From Pseudomonas sp. (GTDB lineage Bacteria; Pseudomonadota; Gammaproteobacteria; Pseudomonadales; Pseudomonadaceae): a stretch of 64,000 nt of DNA. The position numbers and the translations under genes are program-made. Below are positions 1,779-14,606 of this stretch, piece by piece; within the stretch, counting starts at the first letter, position 1; each line of letters begins with the position of its first letter. The stretch covers positions 785-64,784 of the forward strand of contig JBOFCR010000062.1 of NCBI GenBank assembly GCA_051646165.1, in the 5' to 3' direction. Under the pieces are notes generated by a model. It did no database searches. It saw nothing but the letters and a program-made list of their open reading frames with translations, and was not told the DNA's origin.

Positions 1779-5305
<3,527 letters not shown>

Positions 5306-5310
5306 TCCAG
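5306..5310 (+). repeat. 5-bp target-site duplication TCCAG (left copy; right copy 14550-14554)
   Basis: TGA|TCCAG|TGTCG at the left end and CGACA|TCCAG|TCAG at the right end. Confidence 0.9.
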
Positions 5311-5317
5311 TGTCGGT

Positions 5318-5390
5318 GGGCACATTTGATGTCATGTACTCACCTATAGAAATCAGATACTTAGCGCCATAAGTGGGCATTTAAAATGTC
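5318..5390 (-). repeat. Two putative transposase (TnsB-like) binding sites in the gyrB-proximal end
   Basis: Reverse complements GACATCAAATGTGCCC (5318-5333) and GACATTTTAAATGCCC (5375-5390), the same motif as the four distal-end sites. Confidence 0.72.
5351..5363 (+). promoter_or_regulatory. Putative IHF binding site between the two proximal-end transposase sites
   Basis: AATCAGATACTTA matches WATCARNNNNTTR at all fixed positions. Confidence 0.6.
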
Positions 5391-5410
5391 GTCTTAGGGA
5401 TCTAAGTAGT

Positions 5411-5444
5411 AAAGAAAAACCCCGGGATTCCGGGGTTTTTCTTT
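5411..5444. terminator. Bidirectional intrinsic terminator carried by the element (gyrB on +, M48 gene on -)
   Basis: Perfect 15-bp inverted repeat AAAGAAAAACCCCGG-gatt-CCGGGGTTTTTCTTT. Confidence 0.88.
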
Positions 5445-5469
5445 TATAAACATAAGCTTAGGTTGTTCT

Positions 5470-6198
5470 TCAGCGATCCCATCGCTCCTCGGCGAGCAGA
5501 CTGGTGTTGAGTTCGTCCCGAACCAATCGCCACTGGGGAAGTTGTTGATCCAACAGAGCAATGAAGCGGTCGTTATGGTGGCGCTCATGCAGGTGAGCCA
5601 GTTCATGCACCAGGATGTACTCCAGGCACTGCACCGGCTTCTTGGCCAGTTCCAGATTGAGCCAGATGCGCCGCGCTTCGATGTTGCAGGTGCCCCATTT
5701 GGTCTTCATCCGCTTGATGCCCCAGGCCCGCGCTTCAACCCTAAGCTTGGGCTGCCATTTCTCCAGCAGCTCCGGCACCAAGCGCTTTAACTCAGCTCGA
5801 TAGAAGTCATGCAGTACCTGCTCGCGGCGTTCGACTGTAGTGTCAGGGCGAACAAACAAATCCATGGTGGCTTTGCCGCGCAGGGCAATACGTAACGCGC
5901 CTGTGGTTTCGTGAACACGTAGGCGGTAGCGACGGCCAAGGAAGTAATGGCTCTCGCCACTGACCATACGCCGCTGGGATTGCCTGGGCTGGGCCTGAAA
6001 CTTTGCCCGCTGGCGTTTGATCCAGCCTAGCTTGCCCACCACGGCCAAGCGCACAGCTTCATCGTCTACCGCCAACGGAGCGGCCACACGCACGCGCCCC
6101 TGCGGCGGATAAACGCCCAGGTGCAGGTTTTTGATCGGCTTGCGCACGACCTCCACGGTCAAACCGCTGACCGTGATGCTGCGCGACTCAGTATTCAT
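5470..6198 (-). CDS. M48/YgjP (DUF45, SprT-like) zinc metalloprotease of the kind found 3' of type I R-M loci
   Basis: MKTKWGTCN and ILVHELAHL (HExxH) motifs; likely ATG at 6198 overlaps the hsdR remnant's end. Confidence 0.85.
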   Translation of the reverse strand: MNTESRSITVSGLTVEVVRKPIKNLHLGVYPPQGRVRVAAPLAVDDEAVRLAVVGKLGWIKRQRAKFQAQPRQSQRRMVSGESHYFLGRRYRLRVHETTGALRIALRGKATMDLFVRPDTTVERREQVLHDFYRAELKRLVPELLEKWQPKLRVEARAWGIKRMKTKWGTCNIEARRIWLNLELAKKPVQCLEYILVHELAHLHERHHNDRFIALLDQQLPQWRLVRDELNTSLLAEERWDR

Positions 6199-6376
6199 GC
6201 TGATGCTTGACCAGTTCAAGCAAGGCTTTCAGCCGCTCGTTGTCTTGCCCGGCCGAGTAGCTGCCCTGCGATTCGGCGGAGTCTTTGCCCCACTGATCCA
6301 GCACGTTCTTAATCGCCAGGCGAACACGTTTGATCTTCATGGAATTGCTGCGCCAGTCGTCCTGCCGGCTACGCAC
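6188..6376 (-). pseudogene. hsdR: 3'-terminal remnant of type I restriction subunit HsdR
   Basis: RQDDWRSNSMKIKRVRLAIKNVL...LLELVKHQHEY* resembles type I HsdR C-termini; lies directly upstream of the M48 gene; no upstream body. Confidence 0.7.
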
Positions 6377-6522
6377 CTGGTGAAAATGGGGTATGCGGTA
6401 TGAGTGCGGAGGTTAAGCCAGGCTATCGAAGGACTGAGGTGGGGGTAATACCAAACGAATGGCAGGTCAAAAGCCTATCTGAAATTTCAGACAAGATCAT
6501 GGTTGGTATTGCCAGTTCAGCG
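6368..6522 (+). pseudogene. hsdS: Inverted fragment: last codons of hsdM (ATHLVKMGYAV*) plus first 41 codons of hsdS
   Basis: ATGA stop/start overlap at 6400-6403; MSAEVKPGYRRTEVGVIPNEWQVKSLSEI is a typical HsdS N-terminus; opposite strand to the flanking hsdM and hsdR remnants. Confidence 0.75.
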
Positions 6523-6704
6523 AAGCTACCGCCCTCGGGCACCTCAATCAGAGAGTTGGGGTCACCAGCGTACTTGTCCGAAACGTACTTCACGAACAGC
6601 AGTACCAGGACGTAGTCCTTGTACTGCGAGGCATCCATGCCGCCGCGCAGCTCGTCGCAGGATTTCCACAGGGAGGAATAGAGTTCGGATTTCTTGATGG
6701 CCAT
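6516..6704 (-). pseudogene. hsdM: 5' remnant (~62 codons) of type I methyltransferase HsdM
   Basis: MAIKKSELYSSLWKSCDELRGGMDASQYKDYVLVLLFVKYVSD is the HsdM N-terminal domain; the frame then runs into antisense hsdS and stops at 6423. Confidence 0.85.
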
Positions 6705-6709
6705 TATTT

Positions 6710-6985
6710 TTGCCTTACCGCTTTCGGGGCGAAGATTTTTTGAGTGCCTCGTCAATATCGCGAAGCGCTGAAACGCTTCGAACTGCCGCGCGGTGCTGGC
6801 AGGAGGCGCAGTTGATTCGTGCCTATCTAGATGCTCTTGAGCAGGGGGCCCAATCGAGCCAAGAAGGGGTGAGCGATGCTCAACGCGACTATTTGCATTG
6901 GGCGCGGGCTAAGGCCAATTGGCTGGATCCATTAGTTGATTCGCCGGATGCCATCTTGGATCAGGTAATCCGGGTGCCCTACTGA
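6710..6985 (+). pseudogene. Probable C-terminal remnant of a hypothetical protein
   Basis: WQEAQLIRAYLDAL...YLHWARAKANWLDPL looks like a conserved helical C-terminus; no convincing start or RBS. Confidence 0.4.
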
Positions 6986-7013
6986 CTGAGCGGACGCCAA
7001 GGGAGTCGATGCT

Positions 7014-7460
7014 ATGTTGGAGCTGCGGCCATATCGGCCCGAACCTGTTGTTGCATCCGGTTTCTGGGAGCAACTAGGAATCCCCCTACAGGGGAATGCC
7101 CTCATTGAGCAGGTACGGGCCGGATTTTCCTTTGCCACTCTAGAGCGTTTGGCCGTCGCATCTGCGTTTACCGAGACAGAGCTGGCGGGCATGGTGGGTT
7201 TGTCCCGTTATGCTTTGCGTCAGGGTCGCCGTAAGGGGCGATTGTCGACGCCGCAAAGTGATCGGCTGTACCGGGTAGCTCGCATTATCGCCGCAGCTAG
7301 CGAGTTATTTCGGGGTGATCAGGTGGCTGTAAAGCAATGGCTGGTTGCGCCGCAATTTGGTCTTGGTGGGGTGCAGCCAGTGGCGATGCTTGCTACTGAA
7401 ATTGAGGGAAACGTTGTTCTCAATCTGATTGGCCGAATTGAACATAGCGTTGCTATCTAG
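7014..7460 (+). CDS. Xre/MbcA/ParS-type antitoxin (HTH + DUF2384-like domain), no cognate RES toxin gene
   Basis: RBS AAGGGAG; GRLSTPQSDRLYRVARI and KQWLVAPQFGLGGVQPVAML...VLNLIGRIEH motifs. Confidence 0.8.
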   Translation: MLELRPYRPEPVVASGFWEQLGIPLQGNALIEQVRAGFSFATLERLAVASAFTETELAGMVGLSRYALRQGRRKGRLSTPQSDRLYRVARIIAAASELFRGDQVAVKQWLVAPQFGLGGVQPVAMLATEIEGNVVLNLIGRIEHSVAI

Positions 7461-7585
7461 GCGACTGGCTTCAGTTTTCGCTACGGTTACAGGGGGGGCG
7501 GCCAGCGGTCTGACCTTGATCGGTACATTGAACAAGGTGTGCAGGTTTAAAGTGCCGCACAGAAAAGTCTAGGCGGCTCTTTGCT

Positions 7586-10078
7586 TCACGTTTCTATCAT
7601 GACCGGTGTGGCGATCAGGGTTTCAATGGCGTTGTACAGATCGACGGTCGTCTGCTGTGTCTTGATTGAAACGACCAAGCTATACCGGACACGGTTATTG
7701 AAGCGACCCTCTTTGAGGATGGTTTTCCACCACCCCAGCGCAGGGTAGATCGCCAGCATGCCTAAGCCTGCCAAGTCCGCCGCAGTGCCTCGCCAAATAT
7801 CGGAGTGCAGAGACCCTCGATGCCGTGCTCGTGTGCCGAGCAGCCAGCGTGGATCTGAACCGCCCCCTTGGTAAGTACCCTCTTCTTCGTCGCGGGCACG
7901 TTGGTTGATGCGCTGACGGAAGTCGGTTTCATCTTCACCAGGGCGGCTTACTTCAAATCGTAAGCCGTGCGATTCATAGCGATACCGCCCTTTCACCCCC
8001 CGCTCTGTGACACCGGGGTTGGGCTCGATGAAATACGAGAGGGTGACGCGCATTTCAACATCAGCTGCACCTAGGTCGAGCAGCTCTTGCTTGGGCCAGG
8101 GCAGCAAATGCAAGTGCATGTCACGGGCTGTAGGGTTTTTGGAGCCCTGTCTCATGAACGGCTGGAGTTCGTCTTCGACGACCAGGGTCAAGGAGTCTGC
8201 GGCACTCCAGAGCGCTTGCTCTAAGTTCGGGACACCGAAGCCGCAGGTTCTCACCAGGCCTGCGTAGTCGGCTTTGGCCGACCCGGCTAAGAAGTCCTGT
8301 TGCATGCGCTCGGTCCACTCTGCCGAATGAACCATCAGCGCGCGAACTGTTTCGGGCCATAACTGTGGATATGTGGAGAGAATCTGCGCCGCCATACGTG
8401 CTGCTAACGCCGACGCGGCACTAGTGGCCCAGGTCGTTGCAAATAAGCGTTGTTGCGGTAGGTGTGAGGCGGTCAGCAGTGATAGGGCAGCATGTGTGCA
8501 TGCCCACTGGGAATCTTTAGCAAGGTTGCCACCTTCAAATACCACATCGGGTTTCAGCGGCCATGGAGAGCGCTGCCAGGTTAGTGAGGTGGTACTAAAC
8601 GGACTAAGGCTGCCCCCAGGAGCAAGCGGCTCATAACCAGGGCTAGGCGGGTCGATCCTCACCTTCTGCGTATACGCGCCCACGCTGAGAGCATTCCATG
8701 CCTGTGCGGGATCATGAATGCTATCGCTCAGGTTGCTGTTGGGGTAGTCCAAGTACTTCTGTTCATCGGCATTGCCCGCAGACACGATCATCAGCCGAGG
8801 ATTGTCCCGCTCACCCAGCACATCAAATGCCAAAGCATCCACGGCCGCAGACCAGGCTGAGGGGCGACCTCGGTCTCGACCATCGGTACTGGTGACCGCC
8901 ATGCTGAAAATTCGTTTGCGGTAGGGCTGAGCTATTTCTGGTTCAGATACCGCGCGCATGGTTAGGGCACCAAACGGTTCATCTTGGTTGCCTGACGCCG
9001 CAGGTAAAACTTTCACGGACTCAAGGCGGTGATTTATCACCAGTGGCCCTTGCCCGGACAACGGGTCTGTTAGGTCTCCATAGAGCGCGATGCCAGCTAA
9101 CCCAGTGCCGTGACCGTGATTGTCTTGCGAGCCCCAGCTGGCATCAATGGAATAGAGGTCTGCCATGTTGATGTGAGGTGCCAGGAGGGGGTGGCCGGAG
9201 TTCACGCCTGTATCGAGTAGGCAGACATGAACAGATTCCTGACCGGCGACGGTGGTCCGGCTGAGTAACTCATCGACCCAGGCCCGTTGTTCCGTTGGGG
9301 GCAGTGAATCAAAGAACTCAGCAGTTTCTTTGGCTCTTCGGATCTCCGCGACCTCGTTGAGCAATGACATCGACTGAGTGATTTGAGCTTGTGTCCCATG
9401 AACGTTGAGTACGGTGCGTTCAGGGAAGTGCAAAGTGTGTTGGGAGGTGCGAAATCCGCAGGCTTCGGCGATTGAGCGAAAGCGTTGGAGAACGGCTTCT
9501 CGGCTATCCCGAACAGGGAGCCAAAACTCCCACCAAATGGCTTGCTCTTCATGCTCAGGTAGAGCGGTCCGATCATCTGTCCACAGGGCACCAAATGTGG
9601 CGACTCGGATTTCCTGGATAGTATTCAGGAGCGGCGCGTTGCGAGGATTACCTTTGGCTGTGTCTGTTTCGAGGTATTGCCTGACAAGTCCTTCAAACGC
9701 TTTTAGTTGCCCGTCCGGGACAAATACAGTCGCCAGGGTTGTTTGAGTTTCTCTATCGTGGCGCACGTTGAGCAACTCAATGTGCTGCTGGCTACGGGCC
9801 AGCCCCTCAAACGCAAGCTCGAAACCCGGTTGGCTTTTGAACTCAATCTGAAGACCTAGACCTGCCTCAAGGCCAGAGCGACGCTGAAGCTGAACCGCAT
9901 CTGCTACCTGGTGTCGGACTTGACCGAGCTGCCCTAACAGGGCGATGCCGTGGGCCGCTCGATCCAATCTGGGTAAGCGCTTTTCTCCAACGACGGAAGC
10001 CGTGGATTGGAATCGCTCGGCCTTGCCGGTTCCCTGAAAAAGAAAATGTGGACGCTGTCCTGCGTTCTGTTCCGTCAT
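7586..10078 (-). CDS. S8 subtilisin-like serine protease (IetS-like)
   Basis: 830 aa; catalytic D (LLDTGV), H (HGHGTGLAG), S (ATSAAS); KPDVVFEGGN; directly downstream of an AAA ATPase. Confidence 0.9.
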   Translation of the reverse strand: MTEQNAGQRPHFLFQGTGKAERFQSTASVVGEKRLPRLDRAAHGIALLGQLGQVRHQVADAVQLQRRSGLEAGLGLQIEFKSQPGFELAFEGLARSQQHIELLNVRHDRETQTTLATVFVPDGQLKAFEGLVRQYLETDTAKGNPRNAPLLNTIQEIRVATFGALWTDDRTALPEHEEQAIWWEFWLPVRDSREAVLQRFRSIAEACGFRTSQHTLHFPERTVLNVHGTQAQITQSMSLLNEVAEIRRAKETAEFFDSLPPTEQRAWVDELLSRTTVAGQESVHVCLLDTGVNSGHPLLAPHINMADLYSIDASWGSQDNHGHGTGLAGIALYGDLTDPLSGQGPLVINHRLESVKVLPAASGNQDEPFGALTMRAVSEPEIAQPYRKRIFSMAVTSTDGRDRGRPSAWSAAVDALAFDVLGERDNPRLMIVSAGNADEQKYLDYPNSNLSDSIHDPAQAWNALSVGAYTQKVRIDPPSPGYEPLAPGGSLSPFSTTSLTWQRSPWPLKPDVVFEGGNLAKDSQWACTHAALSLLTASHLPQQRLFATTWATSAASALAARMAAQILSTYPQLWPETVRALMVHSAEWTERMQQDFLAGSAKADYAGLVRTCGFGVPNLEQALWSAADSLTLVVEDELQPFMRQGSKNPTARDMHLHLLPWPKQELLDLGAADVEMRVTLSYFIEPNPGVTERGVKGRYRYESHGLRFEVSRPGEDETDFRQRINQRARDEEEGTYQGGGSDPRWLLGTRARHRGSLHSDIWRGTAADLAGLGMLAIYPALGWWKTILKEGRFNNRVRYSLVVSIKTQQTTVDLYNAIETLIATPVMIET

Positions 10079-10095
10079 TGAAAAGCTTCACTGCC

Positions 10096-11085
10096 TTATG
10101 AGCGCTGTTTCCCGTGGAAAGCCTTGCGCTCCTCAAGGTTCTTCGCCACATCGTCAATTGCCACATTGGTACGATCATGAATGATTGCATCCTTGATCGT
10201 ATCGTCAGTCGCTCGGGCTAATTCTGCATAGCTGAGGCCATCTGCCACTTTGCAAAGGCTATCCCAGCGCTTAATCGATTTTGAGAAATTCGCGAGTCGG
10301 CTTTTCAGTACAGCTTTAATTTGATCCTGGCTGGGTAGGCCGTACTCGATGACATCATCAAAGCGCCGGAACAAGGCGTAGTCGAGGATTTCCGGGTGGT
10401 TCGTCGCCGCGATAATCAAGCTATTTGACTGATCTTGCTCGATCATCTGGAGGAAGCTGTTTAGGACCCGGCGGATCTCACCGACATCGTTGGCCATGCC
10501 TCGCTGGGAGCCAATCGCATCGAACTCGTCGAAGAAGTAGATGCCTCTCGTGTCGCGGATGGCGTCGAAGATCTGCCGGAGCTTGGCAGCGGTTTCACCC
10601 ATGAATTTCGTGATCAGGCTGTCGAACCTTACGACGTAAAGCGGAATGCCTAGCTCACCGGCTAGTGCAGACGCTGTCATCGTTTTGCCTGTTCCAGGAG
10701 GGCCGACCAGCAAGAGTTTTCGTCGAGGAGAGAGACCGTGAGCACGAATTTTCTCAAAATTTCGCTGCTCACTGATGATGCGGGCCAACCGCTGGTGGGT
10801 GCCCTCATCAAGGATCATTTCCGAAAAGCGAGTATGAGGTAGAGCGACGGTTAGTAGATTGCTTAGCTCGCCTCTTGGCTGCCCAATGGGTACAGGCTGC
10901 CCGGACGGCAATTGCTTGGCTCGCGACTTGGCAGAGTCGATGAGCGCTCGCAAATCCTCTGCCAGTTTTCCATGACCCTGTTTTGCCTCATGTGCAGCTA
11001 ACTGCATAGCAACAGCGAGGAAATTGCTGTCATCTCCTTTTATATGTGAGCGCAGTAGTGCTTTGAGGTGTTCGCCGCTAGCCAT
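10096..11085 (-). CDS. AAA+ ATPase (IetA-like)
   Basis: Walker A GPPGTGKT, Walker B FFDEFD, ATNHPEILD/RRFDD second region of homology; 17 bp from the S8 gene. Confidence 0.9.
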   Translation of the reverse strand: MASGEHLKALLRSHIKGDDSNFLAVAMQLAAHEAKQGHGKLAEDLRALIDSAKSRAKQLPSGQPVPIGQPRGELSNLLTVALPHTRFSEMILDEGTHQRLARIISEQRNFEKIRAHGLSPRRKLLLVGPPGTGKTMTASALAGELGIPLYVVRFDSLITKFMGETAAKLRQIFDAIRDTRGIYFFDEFDAIGSQRGMANDVGEIRRVLNSFLQMIEQDQSNSLIIAATNHPEILDYALFRRFDDVIEYGLPSQDQIKAVLKSRLANFSKSIKRWDSLCKVADGLSYAELARATDDTIKDAIIHDRTNVAIDDVAKNLEERKAFHGKQRS

Positions 11086-11216
11086 GATTACCTACCTATT
11101 TGTGGTGATAGTGTAACCTGCTTAGACGTTGTGGTTTCTTTCCGTGCCATACCGATCATCCTCTGATCTTCCCCTCTTTTCGTTCAGTCGTCTGTCGTCG
11201 GAACGAATGCTTCAAC

Positions 11217-11654
11217 CTAGGCAGGAATGAGGGGAACAACATCTGCTTTGGCTAACCCTTTCTCTTCCTGGGAGCGCGGCGCTCCTTTTGCTCTGAATTT
11301 CTCTATCAGAATTCGGGCTTTCTCCGCGTGCTTGGCAAATGGTGCCTTACGAGCCCAGCTTTCAGGACCGGAGCATTCATTTACCCTCACGACGGTATGC
11401 TGGCCATAGCGTCTCTGCATGACTGGTTCAGCGAAGCTCGCAAGCTCTGCCGCTTGAGCATGATCAAGCAGCATGATTTGCGAACCATTCCGGAAGTTGC
11501 AAGGGCGAAGGCCGGGGCCAAGGCATACGTCATAGTGCTCATGAGCATAGAACAGATCGAATCCAGGGCAGCGTTCTGCATCAAGCGCCAATGTGTAGTA
11601 AGTCACTCTGGGTGGAAGCGTCGGGAAGACCGGAATTGAGATAGTGAAAACCAC
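11217..11654 (-). CDS. Hypothetical protein
   Basis: 145-aa ORF co-oriented between the MBL hydrolase and the ATPase; no family recognised. Confidence 0.5.
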   Translation of the reverse strand: MVFTISIPVFPTLPPRVTYYTLALDAERCPGFDLFYAHEHYDVCLGPGLRPCNFRNGSQIMLLDHAQAAELASFAEPVMQRRYGQHTVVRVNECSGPESWARKAPFAKHAEKARILIEKFRAKGAPRSQEEKGLAKADVVPLIPA

Positions 11655-11698
11655 CTTGTCTGCTCCGCTAGTAGCTAGTAGTTGTGGGGGCGTAGACG

Positions 11699-12970
11699 TT
11701 AAACACAGATGCAGTCATGTGAGGACACCCTAAAGCATGGACTGTGTCGGCCCAGGTGAACTATTGCTTCTCGTGGTGCCAAACGCCTTTGCGGGCAATG
11801 GGTGCACGCGCGACTGGAGGGTGGAAGGGTTTTGTAAGTCGACCCCGGCTGTTTTATCGAGCCGCCACTTCGAACCCAGAGCCTGACATCAGCCCATGAC
11901 TGAAGGTGTCCGTAGGCTGGCTGGTTGTGCTCCGAGCCGTGATGCGGTGCTGTCGCTACTACTGGAAAGTCGGAAGCTGAAGGATTTTTGGCAAGGAAGG
12001 AATTGGCGTATTTTTGGCCATCGCCTAGAGGAGAGTCGCCACAAAAAACAACTCCGAGCCCTTCGTTATCCGATGGAGGTGCTAGAAACGCAAGGCACTC
12101 TTCATTTGCAGGAGACAGGCGAGCCAGGTACGAGAGCATTTGCGGAGGCTGCGGTGGTAGCTCTACCGAGTTTAACGGTTCGAGAAAGCCAGAGTTGCCG
12201 CCTTTTGCCATACGGCTCGATGCGAATGCGCTGTAGTCAAACCAGCGGACGTGTGCGCGGGATAGCAGTGCCTGAGCTGCGATGGCTCGAATTACCTGAG
12301 CCGCATCTAACAATTCCAACCAATAGCTGGCGACCTGTTGGTTGATTATGTTTTTTGCTTGCCGATAACGAACTTGGCGTCGTCCCCATTCAAGTGCCTG
12401 ACCGGCGTACGACATCCGGTACTCGAAATATGTGCGCGAAGGCTCCTCGTACCAGCGACATGCATCTGTAAGCTCGACAAGGTCGTTCCAAGACACAGTA
12501 TTCGCTAATTTTTCCACACCACCTGCTGCTGGCTCGATCCACGGCCGCTCACGGCGGTTTGCTCGCCGTTCTTCAACCGCCATAGTGTCGAAATGGCGGC
12601 TTACATCCTCATGATCCATCCGCAGATGTTTGAGTTCCTCCGGTAATCGGTCCAGCTCCGAAAGAACACCACTTACCGCCGCTTTCGGATTGGTAATGAG
12701 TTCAGGTATTGAGCCTAACCAGGTTCCTGGGAGCCAGAACTCTCCTACATCAAGTCCAGATGCATTGATCAAATTGCATAAGCCACCAGCATGGTCGCGA
12801 TCCGCATGGGTGCAAACCACAATATCGATCTGCTTCAGGTCAGAAGCATGGGTTTTAAGTGCTCTGGATAGGTCAAGGCTGTTGTACCCCCCATCGACAA
12901 GGACTGTCCTATCGCCTCGGCGCAACAGGAACGACTCCCCCTTGATTGGCAGTGCAATAAGCTTGTCCAT
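11699..12970 (-). CDS. Metallo-beta-lactamase-fold hydrolase (ComEC/Rec2-like nuclease fold)
   Basis: VLVDGG, THADRDH, GDSP and PHHGS motifs; RBS AGGGAG; Cys/His-rich tail (CTHC...HDCIC). Confidence 0.8.
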   Translation of the reverse strand: MDKLIALPIKGESFLLRRGDRTVLVDGGYNSLDLSRALKTHASDLKQIDIVVCTHADRDHAGGLCNLINASGLDVGEFWLPGTWLGSIPELITNPKAAVSGVLSELDRLPEELKHLRMDHEDVSRHFDTMAVEERRANRRERPWIEPAAGGVEKLANTVSWNDLVELTDACRWYEEPSRTYFEYRMSYAGQALEWGRRQVRYRQAKNIINQQVASYWLELLDAAQVIRAIAAQALLSRAHVRWFDYSAFASSRMAKGGNSGFLEPLNSVELPPQPPQMLSYLARLSPANEECLAFLAPPSDNEGLGVVFCGDSPLGDGQKYANSFLAKNPSASDFPVVATAPHHGSEHNQPAYGHLQSWADVRLWVRSGGSIKQPGSTYKTLPPSSRACTHCPQRRLAPREAIVHLGRHSPCFRVSSHDCICV

Positions 12971-13222
12971 CTGAACTCCCTTTCATGCTTCGGTTGTGAG
13001 GGCAAATATGCCCTTCTGTGTTAACCGCGGAAAGCTAATTGTCTGGCTGTATACTATTGGATAGACTGCTGCCCGGCGCCTGCCCAACTTGCACACGAGT
13101 TAAAAAAGGCATTTTGTTCTCCGCTCACTTTCTCTTCAGCTAGAGACCCTCCAAAGCCTGCACGTCCGGGGCTTAAACGTGTGCCGACTGCTCCGAGTAC
13201 GTCAGGCGATGAGGATGGTTTC

Positions 13223-14404
13223 ATGGCTATCAAAGCATTCGTCTACACCACCAAGCACCAGCTTGAGGCTGCCACCCAGCAGTCGTTTCGTCATACTCAT
13301 GTCTACGAGCTACTTGCGGCGAGTTTTGGGTTTAACTCCAATGCTGCCTTGAGCGCGGCTCACGTCTTTGCAGCAATGGGTCAGGCATATCAACCGTCAA
13401 CTACTTCGCTCGGCGCGCTCCATAAACGTTTGGTTGAGCTGGGGTACCAAGAGATTGCTGACCTGGCTGGAGCCGAATTGCTGAAAGTAATTGCCGAACG
13501 CCGCCTGGGGGCAGTTACGGTTGAGTCAGTGATTGATGCGTTGCGGGGCGACCACTGGGAGTACCCAGATGAATGGCGGGAGAGTGACGACGAGGATGAC
13601 CCCTTGGAGTCTGAGGTCTTCAGCAGCGCATCTCCGAGCATTGATCTCGACGATGTCGGACTGCTGGTTGATAGCCTGAGCGGGGCGGCTGCCAAAGGGA
13701 GTGCGGCAGCCCACTACGCGCTTGCACTTATATATAGAGGGGATGACCTCGACGAAGAGGTAGGTTCGGCTTACTGGCATTCACTGATGGAGCAAGGTCG
13801 CGAGCTGGAGGGGGTGCAGCTTGAATGGGCCATGGCCTACCAGAACGGAATGGTCAACGCTGAGCGGGAGGCTTTGCACTTGAAAGAGGCTGCTCGCCTG
13901 GGGTGGTCGGATGCCAGATTGGATATCGCTCTTGAGTGCGCCGAGCATGCTGAAAAGCAAGGTGATCTTGAGCAAGCCCAGTATTGGTATAAGGAAGCTG
14001 CGCTCTTGGGTGATATCGAGGCAATGCGTACATTAGCTTGGCTGGCAGAGGACGCCGATGATCTGGAGTCTGCAAAGCATTGGAGCCATCAGGCCGCTTT
14101 GCTTGGGGACACCGATGCCATGCGTGCGCTGATTGACGACTATGACCAGCGGAACCTGCTCCAGAACTGGGTATGGGTTTATCTATCTGAGCGTCTAGGT
14201 AAGGATCTGCGTGTAAGTACGATGCGTGCCTACCACGATGGAGGTATGTACGCAGGTCAAGAGTACGATGATGACCAGGGTGGCCCGTTGTACGTTGATG
14301 GGGATGAGGGGGTGGAGTTAGAGCCGCTGAGCGTCGAAAATGATGTCGAAGCGAAACGGCTTGCCTACGAGCGTTTCAGCCTTATTCAGCCATCAGGCCG
14401 GTAG
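13223..14404 (+). CDS. Acidic Sel1/TPR-like repeat protein with a small N-terminal helical domain
   Basis: Repeats such as AQYWYKEAALLGDIEAMRTLA and AKHWSHQAALLGDTDAMRAL; ATG 13223 preceded by GAGGA. Confidence 0.75.
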   Translation: MAIKAFVYTTKHQLEAATQQSFRHTHVYELLAASFGFNSNAALSAAHVFAAMGQAYQPSTTSLGALHKRLVELGYQEIADLAGAELLKVIAERRLGAVTVESVIDALRGDHWEYPDEWRESDDEDDPLESEVFSSASPSIDLDDVGLLVDSLSGAAAKGSAAAHYALALIYRGDDLDEEVGSAYWHSLMEQGRELEGVQLEWAMAYQNGMVNAEREALHLKEAARLGWSDARLDIALECAEHAEKQGDLEQAQYWYKEAALLGDIEAMRTLAWLAEDADDLESAKHWSHQAALLGDTDAMRALIDDYDQRNLLQNWVWVYLSERLGKDLRVSTMRAYHDGGMYAGQEYDDDQGGPLYVDGDEGVELEPLSVENDVEAKRLAYERFSLIQPSGR

Positions 14405-14416
14405 GTTGCGGAAAGC

Positions 14417-14542
14417 GACATTAATTAGAGTCAGAATGCTGGAAATGGACATTAATTACGGTCCAAAAGCGACATTTGAAGCGCCCACAATCTGTCTGTA
14501 ACCCCCGTTTTTTCTGAGGGGGCAGCGACACTTAATGTGCCC
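14417..14542 (+). repeat. Four putative transposase (TnsB-like) binding sites in the distal end
   Basis: GACATTAATTAGAGTC (14417), GACATTAATTACGGTC (14448), GACATTTGAAGCGCCC (14471), GACACTTAATGTGCCC (14527). Confidence 0.75.
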
Positions 14543-14574
14543 GTCGACATCCAGTCAGCTGGTTCGCTACATAG

Positions 14575-14606
14575 AAAACCCCGGCCAAGTGCCGGGGTTT
14601 TTCTTT
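14575..14606 (+). terminator. Native gyrB terminator, displaced ~9.2 kb by the insertion
   Basis: AAAACCCCGGC-caagt-GCCGGGGTTTT then TCTTT, 20 bp after the right TSD. Confidence 0.82.

What the first reader, a model, noticed from the sequence alone, without database searches (positions are those of the whole stretch)
5306..14554. Transposase-less Tn7-like element targeting the 3' end of gyrB and carrying defence cargo
Seen: the element starts TGT exactly 5 bp after the gyrB stop and ends ACA at 14549. The 5-bp sequence TCCAG flanks both ends, and the terminal 23 bp are 18/23 inverted repeats. Removing the element rebuilds gyrB-TGA-TCCAG followed 20 bp later by a terminator. None of the internal ORFs looks like TnsA, TnsB/TniA, TnsC/TniB or TniQ/TnsD. 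Established: TGT/ACA ends, 5-bp duplications, iterated TnsB sites and insertion just past conserved essential genes (glmS, parE, comM and others) define Tn7-like elements, which often carry defence genes. Inference: this is a non-autonomous or internally deleted member of a lineage whose target selector reads the conserved gyrB C-terminal codons ([11 protein letters not shown] region). It would be mobilised in trans and act as a defence-island shuttle beside oriC. I do not recall gyrB as a characterised Tn7 attachment site, but could not check the literature.
Basis: partly seen in the sequence, partly recalled or inferred. Interest (0 to 1): 0.9.

Follow-up and report, generated by a model that had tools for sequence, protein, structure and literature searches.

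The report
Transposase-less Tn7-like island behind gyrB
A 9.2-kb piece of foreign DNA carrying anti-phage genes sits five bases after the essential gene gyrB in a Pseudomonas genome. It is a Tn7-type transposon that has no transposition genes of its own, and it belongs to a family that always lands at this spot, a landing site I could not find named in the Tn7 papers I could search.

Summary
gyrB stops at 5303-5305. TCCAG (5306-5310) is repeated at 14550-14554. The element (5311-14549) runs TGT...ACA with 18/23 terminal inverted repeats and further subterminal repeats, and GC is 53-58% against 61-67% in the flanks.

Cargo:
- an IetA/IetS-like ATPase-protease defence pair
- a YgjP-like peptidase beside an HsdM fragment
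- an orphan Xre/ParS antitoxin
- an MBL-fold protein
- two proteins with no family match

No TnsA, TnsB, TnsC or TniQ is encoded in the element. The genome's only rve-type (DDE) transposase is an unrelated Tn5053/Tn402-type TniA.

- In a GTDB-wide scan, all 23 Pseudomonas-type hits to this end were gyrB-proximal ends (16, 4-6 bp after the stop), one tandem copy, or distal ends, with matching 5-bp duplications wherever both ends were seen.
- Two complete relatives (about 26 kb) carry tnsA-tnsB-tnsC-tniQ between such ends.
- About 30% of 104 sampled Pseudomonas species carry a Tn7-like end behind gyrB, from four end families. Most of the rest show empty sites with a terminator.
- Near-identical elements sit in species with about 84% identical gyrB, so the family moves.
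- 15 of 23 genomes with this end type lack the cognate TnsB.

Mobilisation in trans and TniQ binding to gyrB are inferred, not shown.

The parts
2885..5305 (+). gyrB, the target gene. Its conserved last ~70 bp is the presumed recognition sequence.
   Evidence: Pfam hits to DNA_gyraseB, GyrB_insert, DNA_gyraseB_C and Toprim. The 3' end is conserved across occupied sites.
5306..5310 (.). Left copy of the 5-bp target-site duplication, TCCAG
   Evidence: Identical to 14550-14554.
5311..5398 (+). gyrB-proximal transposon end. It holds the terminal TGT and two TnsB-site-like repeats (5311-5333, 5373-5398).
   Evidence: I3, I2, I4. A near-identical end sits at the same site in G042.
5411..5444 (.). 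Element-borne bidirectional intrinsic terminator. It replaces the displaced gyrB terminator and also ends the YgjP-like gene.
   Evidence: -24.5 kcal/mol, z -5.5. An equivalent hairpin lies 50-110 nt inside 14 of 16 related proximal ends. It shares a 15-nt arm with the native terminator (I15).
5470..6219 (-). YgjP-like (M48/SprT-like) metallopeptidase
   Evidence: PF01863, 1.7e-58. 78% identical to the G042 homologue.
6423..6755 (-). Fragment of a type I methyltransferase (HsdM N-terminus only). It is a remnant of a deleted restriction-modification system.
   Evidence: PF12161, 2.3e-11. PADLOC MTase_I covers only positions 1-65 of an 810-position profile.
6710..6985 (+). 91-aa ORF of unknown function, recurring in related elements
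   Evidence: tblastn hits in the elements of G042 (68%), G127 (46%) and P. brassicae (44%).
7014..7460 (+). Xre/ParS-type antitoxin with no partner RES toxin (orphan)
   Evidence: PF20432 and PF09722. TIGR02293, 3.8e-26. No RES-domain ORF is adjacent.
7586..10078 (-). IetS-like S8 subtilase
   Evidence: PF00082, 3.2e-60. PADLOC IetS, 1.8e-36. Below the NCBIfam equivalog cut-off.
10096..11085 (-). IetA-like AAA ATPase
   Evidence: PADLOC IetA, 1.4e-80. PF00004, 6e-32. NCBIfam IteA scores 214 bits against a cut-off of 510.
11217..11654 (-). 145-aa ORF with no family match
11699..12970 (-). MBL-fold hydrolase. Its N-terminal domain resembles those of Avs1a- and LmuA-type defence proteins.
   Evidence: PF00753, 1.1e-8. 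Weak PADLOC hits to LmuA, PDC-M48B and Avs1a, about 1e-11 to 1e-8.
13181..14404 (+). 407-aa ORF with no family match
14410..14549 (-). gyrB-distal transposon end. It holds the terminal ACA, four spaced TnsB-site-like repeats and a small hairpin inside the terminus.
   Evidence: D4, I2, I3. The terminal 25 nt match 24/25 with the ends of tns-encoding relatives.
14550..14554 (.). Right copy of the target-site duplication, TCCAG
14576..14606 (+). Native gyrB terminator, displaced 9.2 kb by the insertion
   Evidence: -21.4 kcal/mol. Homologous to the terminator at the empty site of G010.

Best explanation
Positions 5311-14549 are a non-autonomous Tn7-like transposon. It belongs to a Pseudomonas lineage that homes to one attachment site, the first bases after the gyrB stop codon.

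The proposed mechanism follows Tn7. A large TnsD-like TniQ (about 610-620 aa, TniQ domain plus C-terminal HTH) recognises the conserved 3' coding sequence of gyrB. It recruits the TnsC/TniB ATPase and the TnsA+TnsB transposase. These cut the element at its TGT/ACA termini and join it at a fixed distance and in one orientation, producing a 5-bp duplication (here TCCAG).

This copy keeps both ends with their arrays of TnsB-site-like repeats but encodes none of the four proteins, and its genome has no cognate set. It is therefore immobile where it sits unless a related element supplies the proteins.

Its cargo is an IetA/IetS-like anti-phage pair and an MBL-fold protein, plus decayed pieces: an HsdM stub beside a YgjP-like gene, and an orphan antitoxin. 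A terminator about 100 nt inside the proximal end takes over termination of gyrB.

Shown: the insertion, the ends and duplication, the absence of tns genes, the family's specificity for gyrB and for one orientation, tns genes in relatives, and recent movement of relatives between species.

Inferred: TniQ reading gyrB, the terminator's function, the defence function of the cargo, and how this copy came to lack tns genes. I favour internal deletion of a once-autonomous element over arrival by mobilisation in trans, but the data do not decide.
For: - Ends, duplication and rebuilt site.
- Lower GC inside the element.
- No tns genes in the element and none cognate in the 99.5%-complete genome.
- Genus search with the distal end finds the same terminus 5 bp after gyrB in G127 and G100, and in tandem arrays in G113 and G099.
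- G127 and G155 carry tnsA-tnsB-tnsC-tniQ between such ends, with duplications TCAGG and TACGT.
- TnsB of G127 matches the solved Tn6677 TnsB (2.4e-27), and its TniQ matches solved TniQ N-domains.
- GTDB-wide scan: 16 hits lie 4-6 bp after the gyrB stop, one is a tandem copy and six are distal ends. Four proximal/distal pairs have matching duplications. The 11 hits outside Pseudomonas are at chance level.
- Orientation is constant: all 16 proximal ends share one architecture.
- Recent mobility: element interiors are 97.7% identical between two species whose gyrB flanks are 83.7% identical. A distal module is 99.5% identical between two other species with gyrB at 84.4%, and their duplications differ.
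- Cargo.
Against: - No experiment and no in-silico binding evidence links TniQ to gyrB.
- The sub-lineage with this exact proximal end (this genome and G042) has no known autonomous member. G042 also lacks the TnsB.
- The two ends match only 18/23 in the terminal 23 nt, though asymmetric ends are normal in Tn7-like elements.
- IetA and IetS score below NCBIfam's equivalog cut-offs, so the defence function is by family resemblance only.
- The assembly has 204 contigs, so a transposase gene in an unassembled gap cannot be fully excluded.
Confidence: 0.88

Rival explanations
1. Active trans-mobilised cassette, the stronger form of the first reader's idea. The element never carried, or long ago shed, its tns genes and spreads as a defence shuttle, using the TnsABC+TniQ of autonomous relatives that pass through the same cells.
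For: - Both ends, the duplication and the repeat arrays are intact.
- 15 of 23 genomes with this end type lack the cognate TnsB, including contiguous or complete cases (G113, NFX224).
- The same sub-type of tns-less element sits in G042, whose gyrB is only 81% identical. Closer relatives have an empty site (G010, 87%) or a different element (G014, 89%).
- P. baetica lacks the tns-bearing contig of P. brassicae yet shares a 99.5% identical distal module and has its own duplication.
Against: - No two tns-less copies were found that are near-identical along their whole length and inserted in different species. The baetica/brassicae pair shares only the distal module.
- This copy shows internal decay: an HsdM stub and an orphan antitoxin.
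- The element parts shared by G000 and G042 are as diverged (78%) as their gyrB (81-82%), which fits long residence as well as transfer.
- Loss of tns genes after insertion is already documented as common at the glmS site (PMC11014353).
Confidence: 0.3
2. A Tn5053/Tn402-family element moved by the genome's resident TniA-TniB-TniQ (contig C86).
For: The genome's only rve-type (DDE) transposase is a TniA with TniB and TniQ beside it. Both families start TGTCG and make 5-bp duplications (the latter from my own knowledge of the family).
Against: - The C86 inverted repeat is the classic TGTCGTTTTCAGAAGACGACCGCAC and shares only TGTCG with these ends.
- That TniA is 22% identical to the TnsB found with this end type.
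- Tn5053-type elements are listed as targeting plasmid resolution sites (Table 1 of PMC11406308), not gyrB.
- Every relative of these ends is at gyrB and is paired with TnsA-containing operons.
Confidence: 0.02
3. Not a transposon. The terminal repeats and the TCCAG duplicate are chance, and the island arrived by another route such as an integrase or recombination.
For: No recombinase of any kind is encoded inside the element.
Against: - Chance is about 1e-3 for the duplication times about 1e-7 for the inverted repeat (my arithmetic).
- The same termini bound tns-encoding elements at the same base in many species.
- Homologous recombination through gyrB and the downstream core genes could still have carried an already-inserted element between strains. 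That would not change what the element is.
Confidence: 0.01

Closest known systems
Tn7 (TnsABC+TnsD pathway into attTn7 downstream of glmS)
   Same: TGT/ACA termini, a 5-bp duplication and asymmetric arrays of transposase-binding repeats. Insertion is site- and orientation-specific, just past the stop codon of an essential, conserved gene. The autonomous relatives carry tnsA-tnsB-tnsC plus a large TniQ-domain selector that reads away from the target gene.
   Different: The target is gyrB, not glmS, and insertion is 4-6 bp after the stop. This copy has no tns genes. In relatives of this end type and of two of the other three end types (C, D), the tns operon lies 10-15 kb from the proximal end, so cargo sits on both sides. 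No TnsE homologue was looked for.
parE-targeting Tn7-like elements (for example Tn7017/EasCAST and the parE branch in Acinetobacter; PMC11406308, PMC11014353)
   Same: A TniQ-directed attachment site just downstream of a type II topoisomerase B-subunit gene. From my own knowledge, parE is the paralogue of gyrB.
   Different: All copies found here are at gyrB and none at parE. The selector is about 610-620 aa against the roughly 486 aa reported for the parE TniQ. I could not test sequence relatedness of the two selectors, because no parE-type sequence was at hand.
Degraded or tns-less Tn7-like insertions at att sites (glmS-site islands in A. baumannii, PMC11014353)
   Same: An element at an attachment site that lacks the essential transposition genes. 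That paper reports insertion evidence in 24% of closed genomes and predicted functional elements in only about 9%.
   Different: Here both ends and the duplication are intact and the attachment site is different.
Tn5053/Tn402 family (TniABQ plus resolvase)
   Same: TGTCG start, TnsB-like TniA, TniB and TniQ. A copy is present in this genome.
   Different: The inverted repeats are different, there is no TnsA, the family hunts resolution sites, and it is unrelated to these ends.
IetAS (Gao et al. 2020) defence system
   Same: An adjacent AAA ATPase and S8 subtilase that match the PADLOC IetA and IetS models.
   Different: Scores are far below NCBIfam's equivalog cut-offs, so this is a distant variant. 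Function is untested.

Membership tests
Tn7-like transposons | 5'-TGT...ACA-3' termini | tested here: met
   TGT at 5311-5313, ACA at 14547-14549.
Tn7-like transposons | 5-bp target-site duplication | tested here: met
   TCCAG at 5306-5310 and 14550-14554. Relatives show matched 5-bp pairs.
Tn7-like transposons | Several transposase-binding repeats in each end, arranged differently at the two ends | tested here: met
   two repeats in the proximal end (5311-5333, 5373-5398) and four in the distal end (14410-14549). Binding itself was not tested.
Tn7-like transposons | Encodes TnsB (DDE), TnsC/TniB and TniQ/TnsD, with or without TnsA | tested here: not met
   There are no such ORFs in 5311-14549. 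The feature is met in relatives with the same end type (G127, G155, P. brassicae). This copy is therefore filed as a non-autonomous derivative, not an autonomous member.
Tn7-like transposons | Site- and orientation-specific insertion next to a conserved gene (att site) | tested here: met
   16 of 16 gyrB-adjacent hits lie 4-6 bp after the stop, in one orientation. The genus survey agrees.
Tn7-like transposons | Target selector binds the att sequence (TniQ/TnsD to gyrB) | not testable with these tools
   Inferred from fixed spacing and orientation only.
Tn5053/Tn402 family | 25-bp inverted repeats of the TGTCGTTTTCAGAAGACG type, with tniABQ plus a resolvase | tested here: not met
   The ends share only TGTCG with the C86 inverted repeat. 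There are no tni genes inside.
IetAS defence system | Adjacent IetA (AAA ATPase) and IetS (S8 peptidase) | tested here: inconclusive
   PADLOC gives IetA 1.4e-80 and IetS 1.8e-36. NCBIfam gives IteA 214 bits against a cut-off of 510 and IteS 82 against 900.
Type I restriction-modification | Complete hsdR, hsdM and hsdS | tested here: not met
   Only an N-terminal HsdM stub is present, beside a YgjP-like gene.
RES-Xre toxin-antitoxin | Antitoxin with an adjacent RES toxin | tested here: not met
   The antitoxin is present. No adjacent toxin ORF exists.

The most novel reading that the evidence does not exclude
The 3' end of gyrB, a few kb from oriC, is a major and so far unnamed attachment site for Tn7-like transposons. 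In Pseudomonas at least four end families use it. Three of them share a homologous TnsD-like selector of about 600 aa. They occupy roughly a third of species, stack in tandem and carry defence cargo. Most copies of the family studied here are tns-less cassettes with intact ends that could be moved in trans. They also bring their own copy of a gyrB-type terminator, so that expression of the essential target gene is buffered.
Probability: 0.45. Interest if true: 0.65.

Novelty: new variant of a known kind. Interest (0 to 1): 0.55.

Why it matters
The result adds a conserved, essential, origin-proximal gene to the list of Tn7-family landing sites (glmS, comM, parE, nrdB, yhiN, tRNA genes and others). 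That gives a fixed place to look for defence islands in Pseudomonas. It also gives a new natural selector-target pair, a TnsD-like TniQ and the gyrB 3' end, that could be tested for site-specific integration tools.

It shows too that surveys which find Tn7-like elements through their transposase genes would miss most copies of this family. The ends and the att site find them.

For this genome the practical result is an annotation: a 9.2-kb foreign island with an IetAS-like system, currently immobile.

Tried and rejected
- **Cognate transposase in the window's own genome.** The end pattern finds only the two ends plus two one-mismatch hits, which is chance level. The rve family scan and tblastn with the G127 Tns proteins find only a Tn5053/Tn402-type tniABQ on contig C86, and its inverted repeat does not match. 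I rejected it as the mobiliser.
- **Internal ends in G127.** I looked for ends that would make its 26-kb element a composite of a cargo-only and an autonomous element. None were found.
- **Terminator scanner.** The simple consensus scan missed both obvious terminators. Folding showed them.
- **Using P. baetica and P. brassicae as proof of trans-mobilisation.** They share only the distal 2.9 kb at 99.5% and their proximal cargo differs. This is module sharing, not proof.
- **Deciding between vertical inheritance and independent acquisition for the G000/G042 pair.** Shared element parts are 78% identical and gyrB 81-82%, while closer relatives have an empty site or a different element. This stays unresolved.
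- **Closest relatives.** The 'relatives' search did not return species closer than 89% in gyrB, so no near-isogenic empty allele was available.
- **Literature.** Eight searches and eleven papers were read for gyrB as a Tn7 att site. None name it. One paper places a Tn7-like transposon at locus tags B479_00025-00140 of P. putida HB3267, which by numbering should directly follow gyrB. That placement is my inference.

Full report
**1. Observation.**
gyrB (2885-5305, Pfam) ends ...GACTTCTGA. The next five bases are TCCAG (5306-5310), and the element starts TGTCGGTGGGCACATTTGATGTC at 5311. At the other side...GACACTTAATGTGCCCGTCGACA ends at 14549 and TCCAG follows at 14550-14554.

The repeat finder reports three features:
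- the terminal inverted repeat (I3, 23 nt, 18/23)
- a second inverted pair further in (I2, 5373-5398 with 14463-14488)
- two direct 30-nt repeats in the distal end (D4, 14410-14439 and 14441-14470)

That gives two repeat units in the gyrB-proximal end and four in the distal end, the asymmetric pattern expected of Tn7-type ends. GC is 0.53-0.58 inside against 0.61-0.67 outside.

Removing the element leaves TGA-TCCAG, followed 21 bp later by a strong terminator (14576-14606, -21.4 kcal/mol). Genome G010 has exactly such an uninterrupted site, 85% identical across the junction and with a homologous terminator.

**2. Content.**
Reading from gyrB, the element holds:
- a strong bidirectional terminator (5411-5444, -24.5 kcal/mol, z -5.5)
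- a YgjP-like metallopeptidase (5470-6219, minus strand)
- a stub of a type I methyltransferase, covering only the first ~65 positions of HsdM (6423-6755, minus strand)
- a 91-aa ORF that recurs in related elements (6710-6985)
- an Xre/ParS-type antitoxin with no RES toxin beside it (7014-7460)
- an S8 subtilase (7586-10078, minus strand) and an AAA ATPase (10096-11085, minus strand), which match PADLOC IetS (1.8e-36) and IetA (1.4e-80) but fall well below NCBIfam's equivalog cut-offs
- a 145-aa ORF
- an MBL-fold protein (11699-12970, minus strand)
- a 407-aa ORF with no family match

Nothing resembles TnsA, TnsB, TnsC or TniQ. The stub and the orphan antitoxin show that internal deletions have occurred.

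**3. No cognate transposase in this genome.**
The assembly (4.6 Mb, 204 contigs, 99.5% complete) contains the end motif only at the two ends, plus two one-mismatch hits at chance level. Its only rve-type (DDE) transposase is a TniA with TniB and TniQ on contig C86. The inverted repeat there is the classic Tn5053/Tn402 TGTCGTTTTCAGAAGACGACCGCAC, unrelated beyond TGTCG. tblastn with the Tns proteins of the autonomous relative finds only that distant TniA/TniB (22-29% identity).

**4. The family and its target.**
A genus search with the distal 145 bp found the terminal 25 nt (24/25 identical) in four other genomes.
- In G127 the element starts five bases after the gyrB stop (TGA-TCAGG|TGTCGATGGGCACATT...) and ends 26 kb later, before a second TCAGG.
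- Inside are a TnsA-like protein, a 653-aa TnsB (Mu-transpos_C; 2.4e-27 to the solved Tn6677 TnsB), a TniB-type ATPase and a 613-aa TniQ with a C-terminal HTH. Cargo includes SIR2, reverse-transcriptase and methyltransferase genes.
- A second complete example, G155 (MAG OH_PBlB_24), spans 950-26787 with duplication TACGT and the same operon at 52-72% identity.

A scan of one genome per GTDB species for TGTCGNNGGGCACATTNNNTGTC gave 34 hits.
- 11 are in unrelated phyla. About 17 are expected by chance from the size of the collection (my arithmetic).
- 23 are in Pseudomonas or Pseudomonas-like MAGs.
- Of those 23, 16 lie 4-6 bp after a gyrB stop codon, and one abuts another transposon end in a tandem array.
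- The other six are distal ends next to terminators.
- Wherever both ends of one element were seen, the 5-bp duplications match: P. brassicae CGCAG, P. baetica TTCGT, P. machongensis ATTAC, OH_PBlB_24 TACGT.
- No copy lies anywhere else, and all 16 proximal ends have the same internal architecture, so orientation is fixed.

**5. gyrB is a hotspot for several lineages.**
I read the 45 nt after the conserved AACCTGGAYTTCTGA in 151 genomes of the genus (classified). That gave 104 recognisable gyrB ends.
- 63 go straight to a terminator (empty sites). Many read TGA-TCCAG or TGA-TCAGG.
- About 32 have a TGT-type end 4-8 bp (one at 12 bp) after the stop, in four sequence families:
  - type A, TGTAGGTTCACAGAAAAG... 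(about 19)
  - type B, this element's TGTCGnnGGGCACATT (4)
  - type C, TGTCGACGGGCAAGTTAATTGTCATG (5)
  - type D, TGTAGGTGGGCAAAGTTA (about 4)
- A further 9 are unclassified, and some of these also look like ends.

The TniQ proteins of B, C and D align over their full length (36% and 29% identity). Type A is more distant (22%, N-terminal part only).

In G113 a 51-kb type A element and an 11-kb type B element are stacked as gyrB-TCAGG-[A]-TCAGG-[B]-TCAGG. This is what two successive insertions into the same five bases would produce.

**6. The family is active.**
- The element interiors of Pseudomonas sp. LP_7_YM and sp. MWU15-20650 are 97.7% identical over 2.7 kb, while their gyrB flanks are 83.7% identical. 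Both encode the TnsB.
- P. baetica and P. brassicae share the distal 2.9 kb (a TOTE-type primase and helicase) at 99.5% identity against 84.4% for gyrB. Their duplications differ.

**7. Transposase-less copies are the majority.**
Of 23 genomes with type B ends, 8 have a type B TnsB (57-100% identity) and 15 do not. The 15 include contiguous or complete cases: this window, the G113 copy and strain NFX224. Some MAGs may simply be incomplete.

The G113 copy keeps the proximal end and the conserved distal module of autonomous elements but lacks the middle, which fits an internal deletion.

The present element belongs to a sub-type whose proximal end (TGTCGGTGGGCACATTTGATGTCATGT) I saw otherwise only in G042.
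- G042 has the same duplication (TCCAG), the same internal terminator, and homologues of the YgjP-like gene, orf91 and the antitoxin. It too has no TnsB.
- G042 is not a close relative (gyrB 81-82% identical). Closer genomes have an empty site (G010, 87%) or a type C element (G014, 89%).
- The shared element parts are 78% identical.

These numbers fit either long residence with losses elsewhere or independent arrivals of an already tns-less element. I cannot decide between them.

**8. Mechanism.**
By analogy with Tn7 and from the fixed spacing and orientation, I infer that the large TniQ binds the conserved 3' codons of gyrB. The flanks of all occupied sites are conserved apart from mostly third-codon-position changes over the last ~70 bp (...GARCCNCGNCGNGANTTYATHGA...AAYCTGGAYTTCTGA). 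TnsC would then set the distance to the insertion point. The point wobbles by one base either way without any indel in gyrB, so the ruler starts inside the gene rather than at the stop codon.

A hairpin plus T-tract lies 50-110 nt inside 14 of the 16 proximal ends, and here too. Its sequence is very like the native gyrB terminator of this genome and of G010 (I15). I read it as a replacement terminator that keeps gyrB's transcript end intact and shields the cargo from read-through. That reading is inference.

**9. Comparison with what is known.**
The element works like Tn7 at attTn7, and its relatives have the defining proteins. This copy fails the test of encoding the transposition genes, so it is a non-autonomous derivative.

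I did not find gyrB as an attachment site in:
- Faure et al. 2023 (PMC10293859)
- Benler et al. 2021 and its held supplement (PMC8649781)
- the 2024 Annual Review (PMC11406308)
- the A. baumannii study (PMC11014353)
- the 2025 archaeal preprint
- any full-text search combining gyrB with Tn7 terms

The closest precedent is the parE attachment site. One paper lists a Tn7-like transposon at locus tags B479_00025-00140 of P. putida HB3267. By numbering this should follow gyrB directly, but the paper does not say so.

Tns-less insertions at att sites are already documented for glmS, so the transposase-less state is not new in kind. Earlier notes of this scan report gyrB-homing Tn7-like elements in other genomes. 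They agree with this report but are not independent evidence.

**10. Verdict.**
This is a real, well-delimited, non-autonomous Tn7-like defence island at a gyrB attachment site. Trans-mobilisation and the TniQ-gyrB contact remain to be tested. The main limit on the novelty claim is that only open full texts could be searched.

Noticed in passing
Own genome, contig C86:18-4000 (outside the window): A Tn5053/Tn402-type module: tniA (596 aa), tniB (322 aa) and tniQ (415 aa, cut by the contig end). The classic inverted repeat TGTCGTTTTCAGAAGACGACCGCAC lies just upstream of tniA.
   Followed up: partly
G113:C1:6230-68412 (L016, L017, L012, L013); G099 contigs C36 and C18: Tandem array behind gyrB: a 51-kb element of a different end family (TGTAGGTTCACAG..., with tnsB/C/Q 1.7 kb from gyrB), followed by an 11-kb tns-less element of this family. 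There are three copies of the duplication TCAGG. The same arrangement is seen in G099.
   Followed up: partly
Genus survey: Four distinct Tn7-like end families use the gyrB site. About 30% of 104 sampled Pseudomonas species are occupied. The insertion point lies 4-8 bp after the stop (one hit at 12 bp).
   Followed up: partly
window 5411-5444 and 14576-14606; proximal ends of L023-L051: The element-borne terminator just inside the gyrB-proximal end is conserved across the family. It closely resembles the native AACCCCGGCC...GCCGGGGTTTTTCTTTG gyrB terminator of a subgroup of small-genome Pseudomonas. This hints that the family captured a host terminator.
   Followed up: partly
G127 (L010/L011), G155 (L070), G112 (L068), G079 (L069): In three of the four end families the tnsABC-tniQ operon lies 10-15 kb from the gyrB-proximal end, so cargo sits on both sides of the operon. 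In G127 and P. brassicae an N6-methyltransferase gene lies divergently just upstream of tnsA.
   Followed up: no
L022, L046, L029, L033; G113:C1:65700-68412: A helicase (ResIII/DEAD) plus a TOTE-type archaeo-eukaryotic primase module sits at the distal end of many elements of this family, both autonomous and tns-less. Identity ranges from 71% to 99.5%. In P. brassicae the primase ORF is split in two.
   Followed up: partly
G009:C7 about 110000; P. sp. 2835 (L033): A short sequence, TGTAGGTTCAAAAAAGCAACATCATCAAGCCCGC, lies between the duplication and the terminator. It looks like a solo remnant of a type A end fused to the native terminator.
   Followed up: no
window 6400-6615 (+): A 71-aa ORF on the strand opposite the HsdM stub reads, by eye, like the start of a type I specificity subunit (…VIPNEWQVKSLSEISDKIMVG…). 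It is possibly another restriction-modification remnant in inverted orientation. No tool check was made.
   Followed up: no
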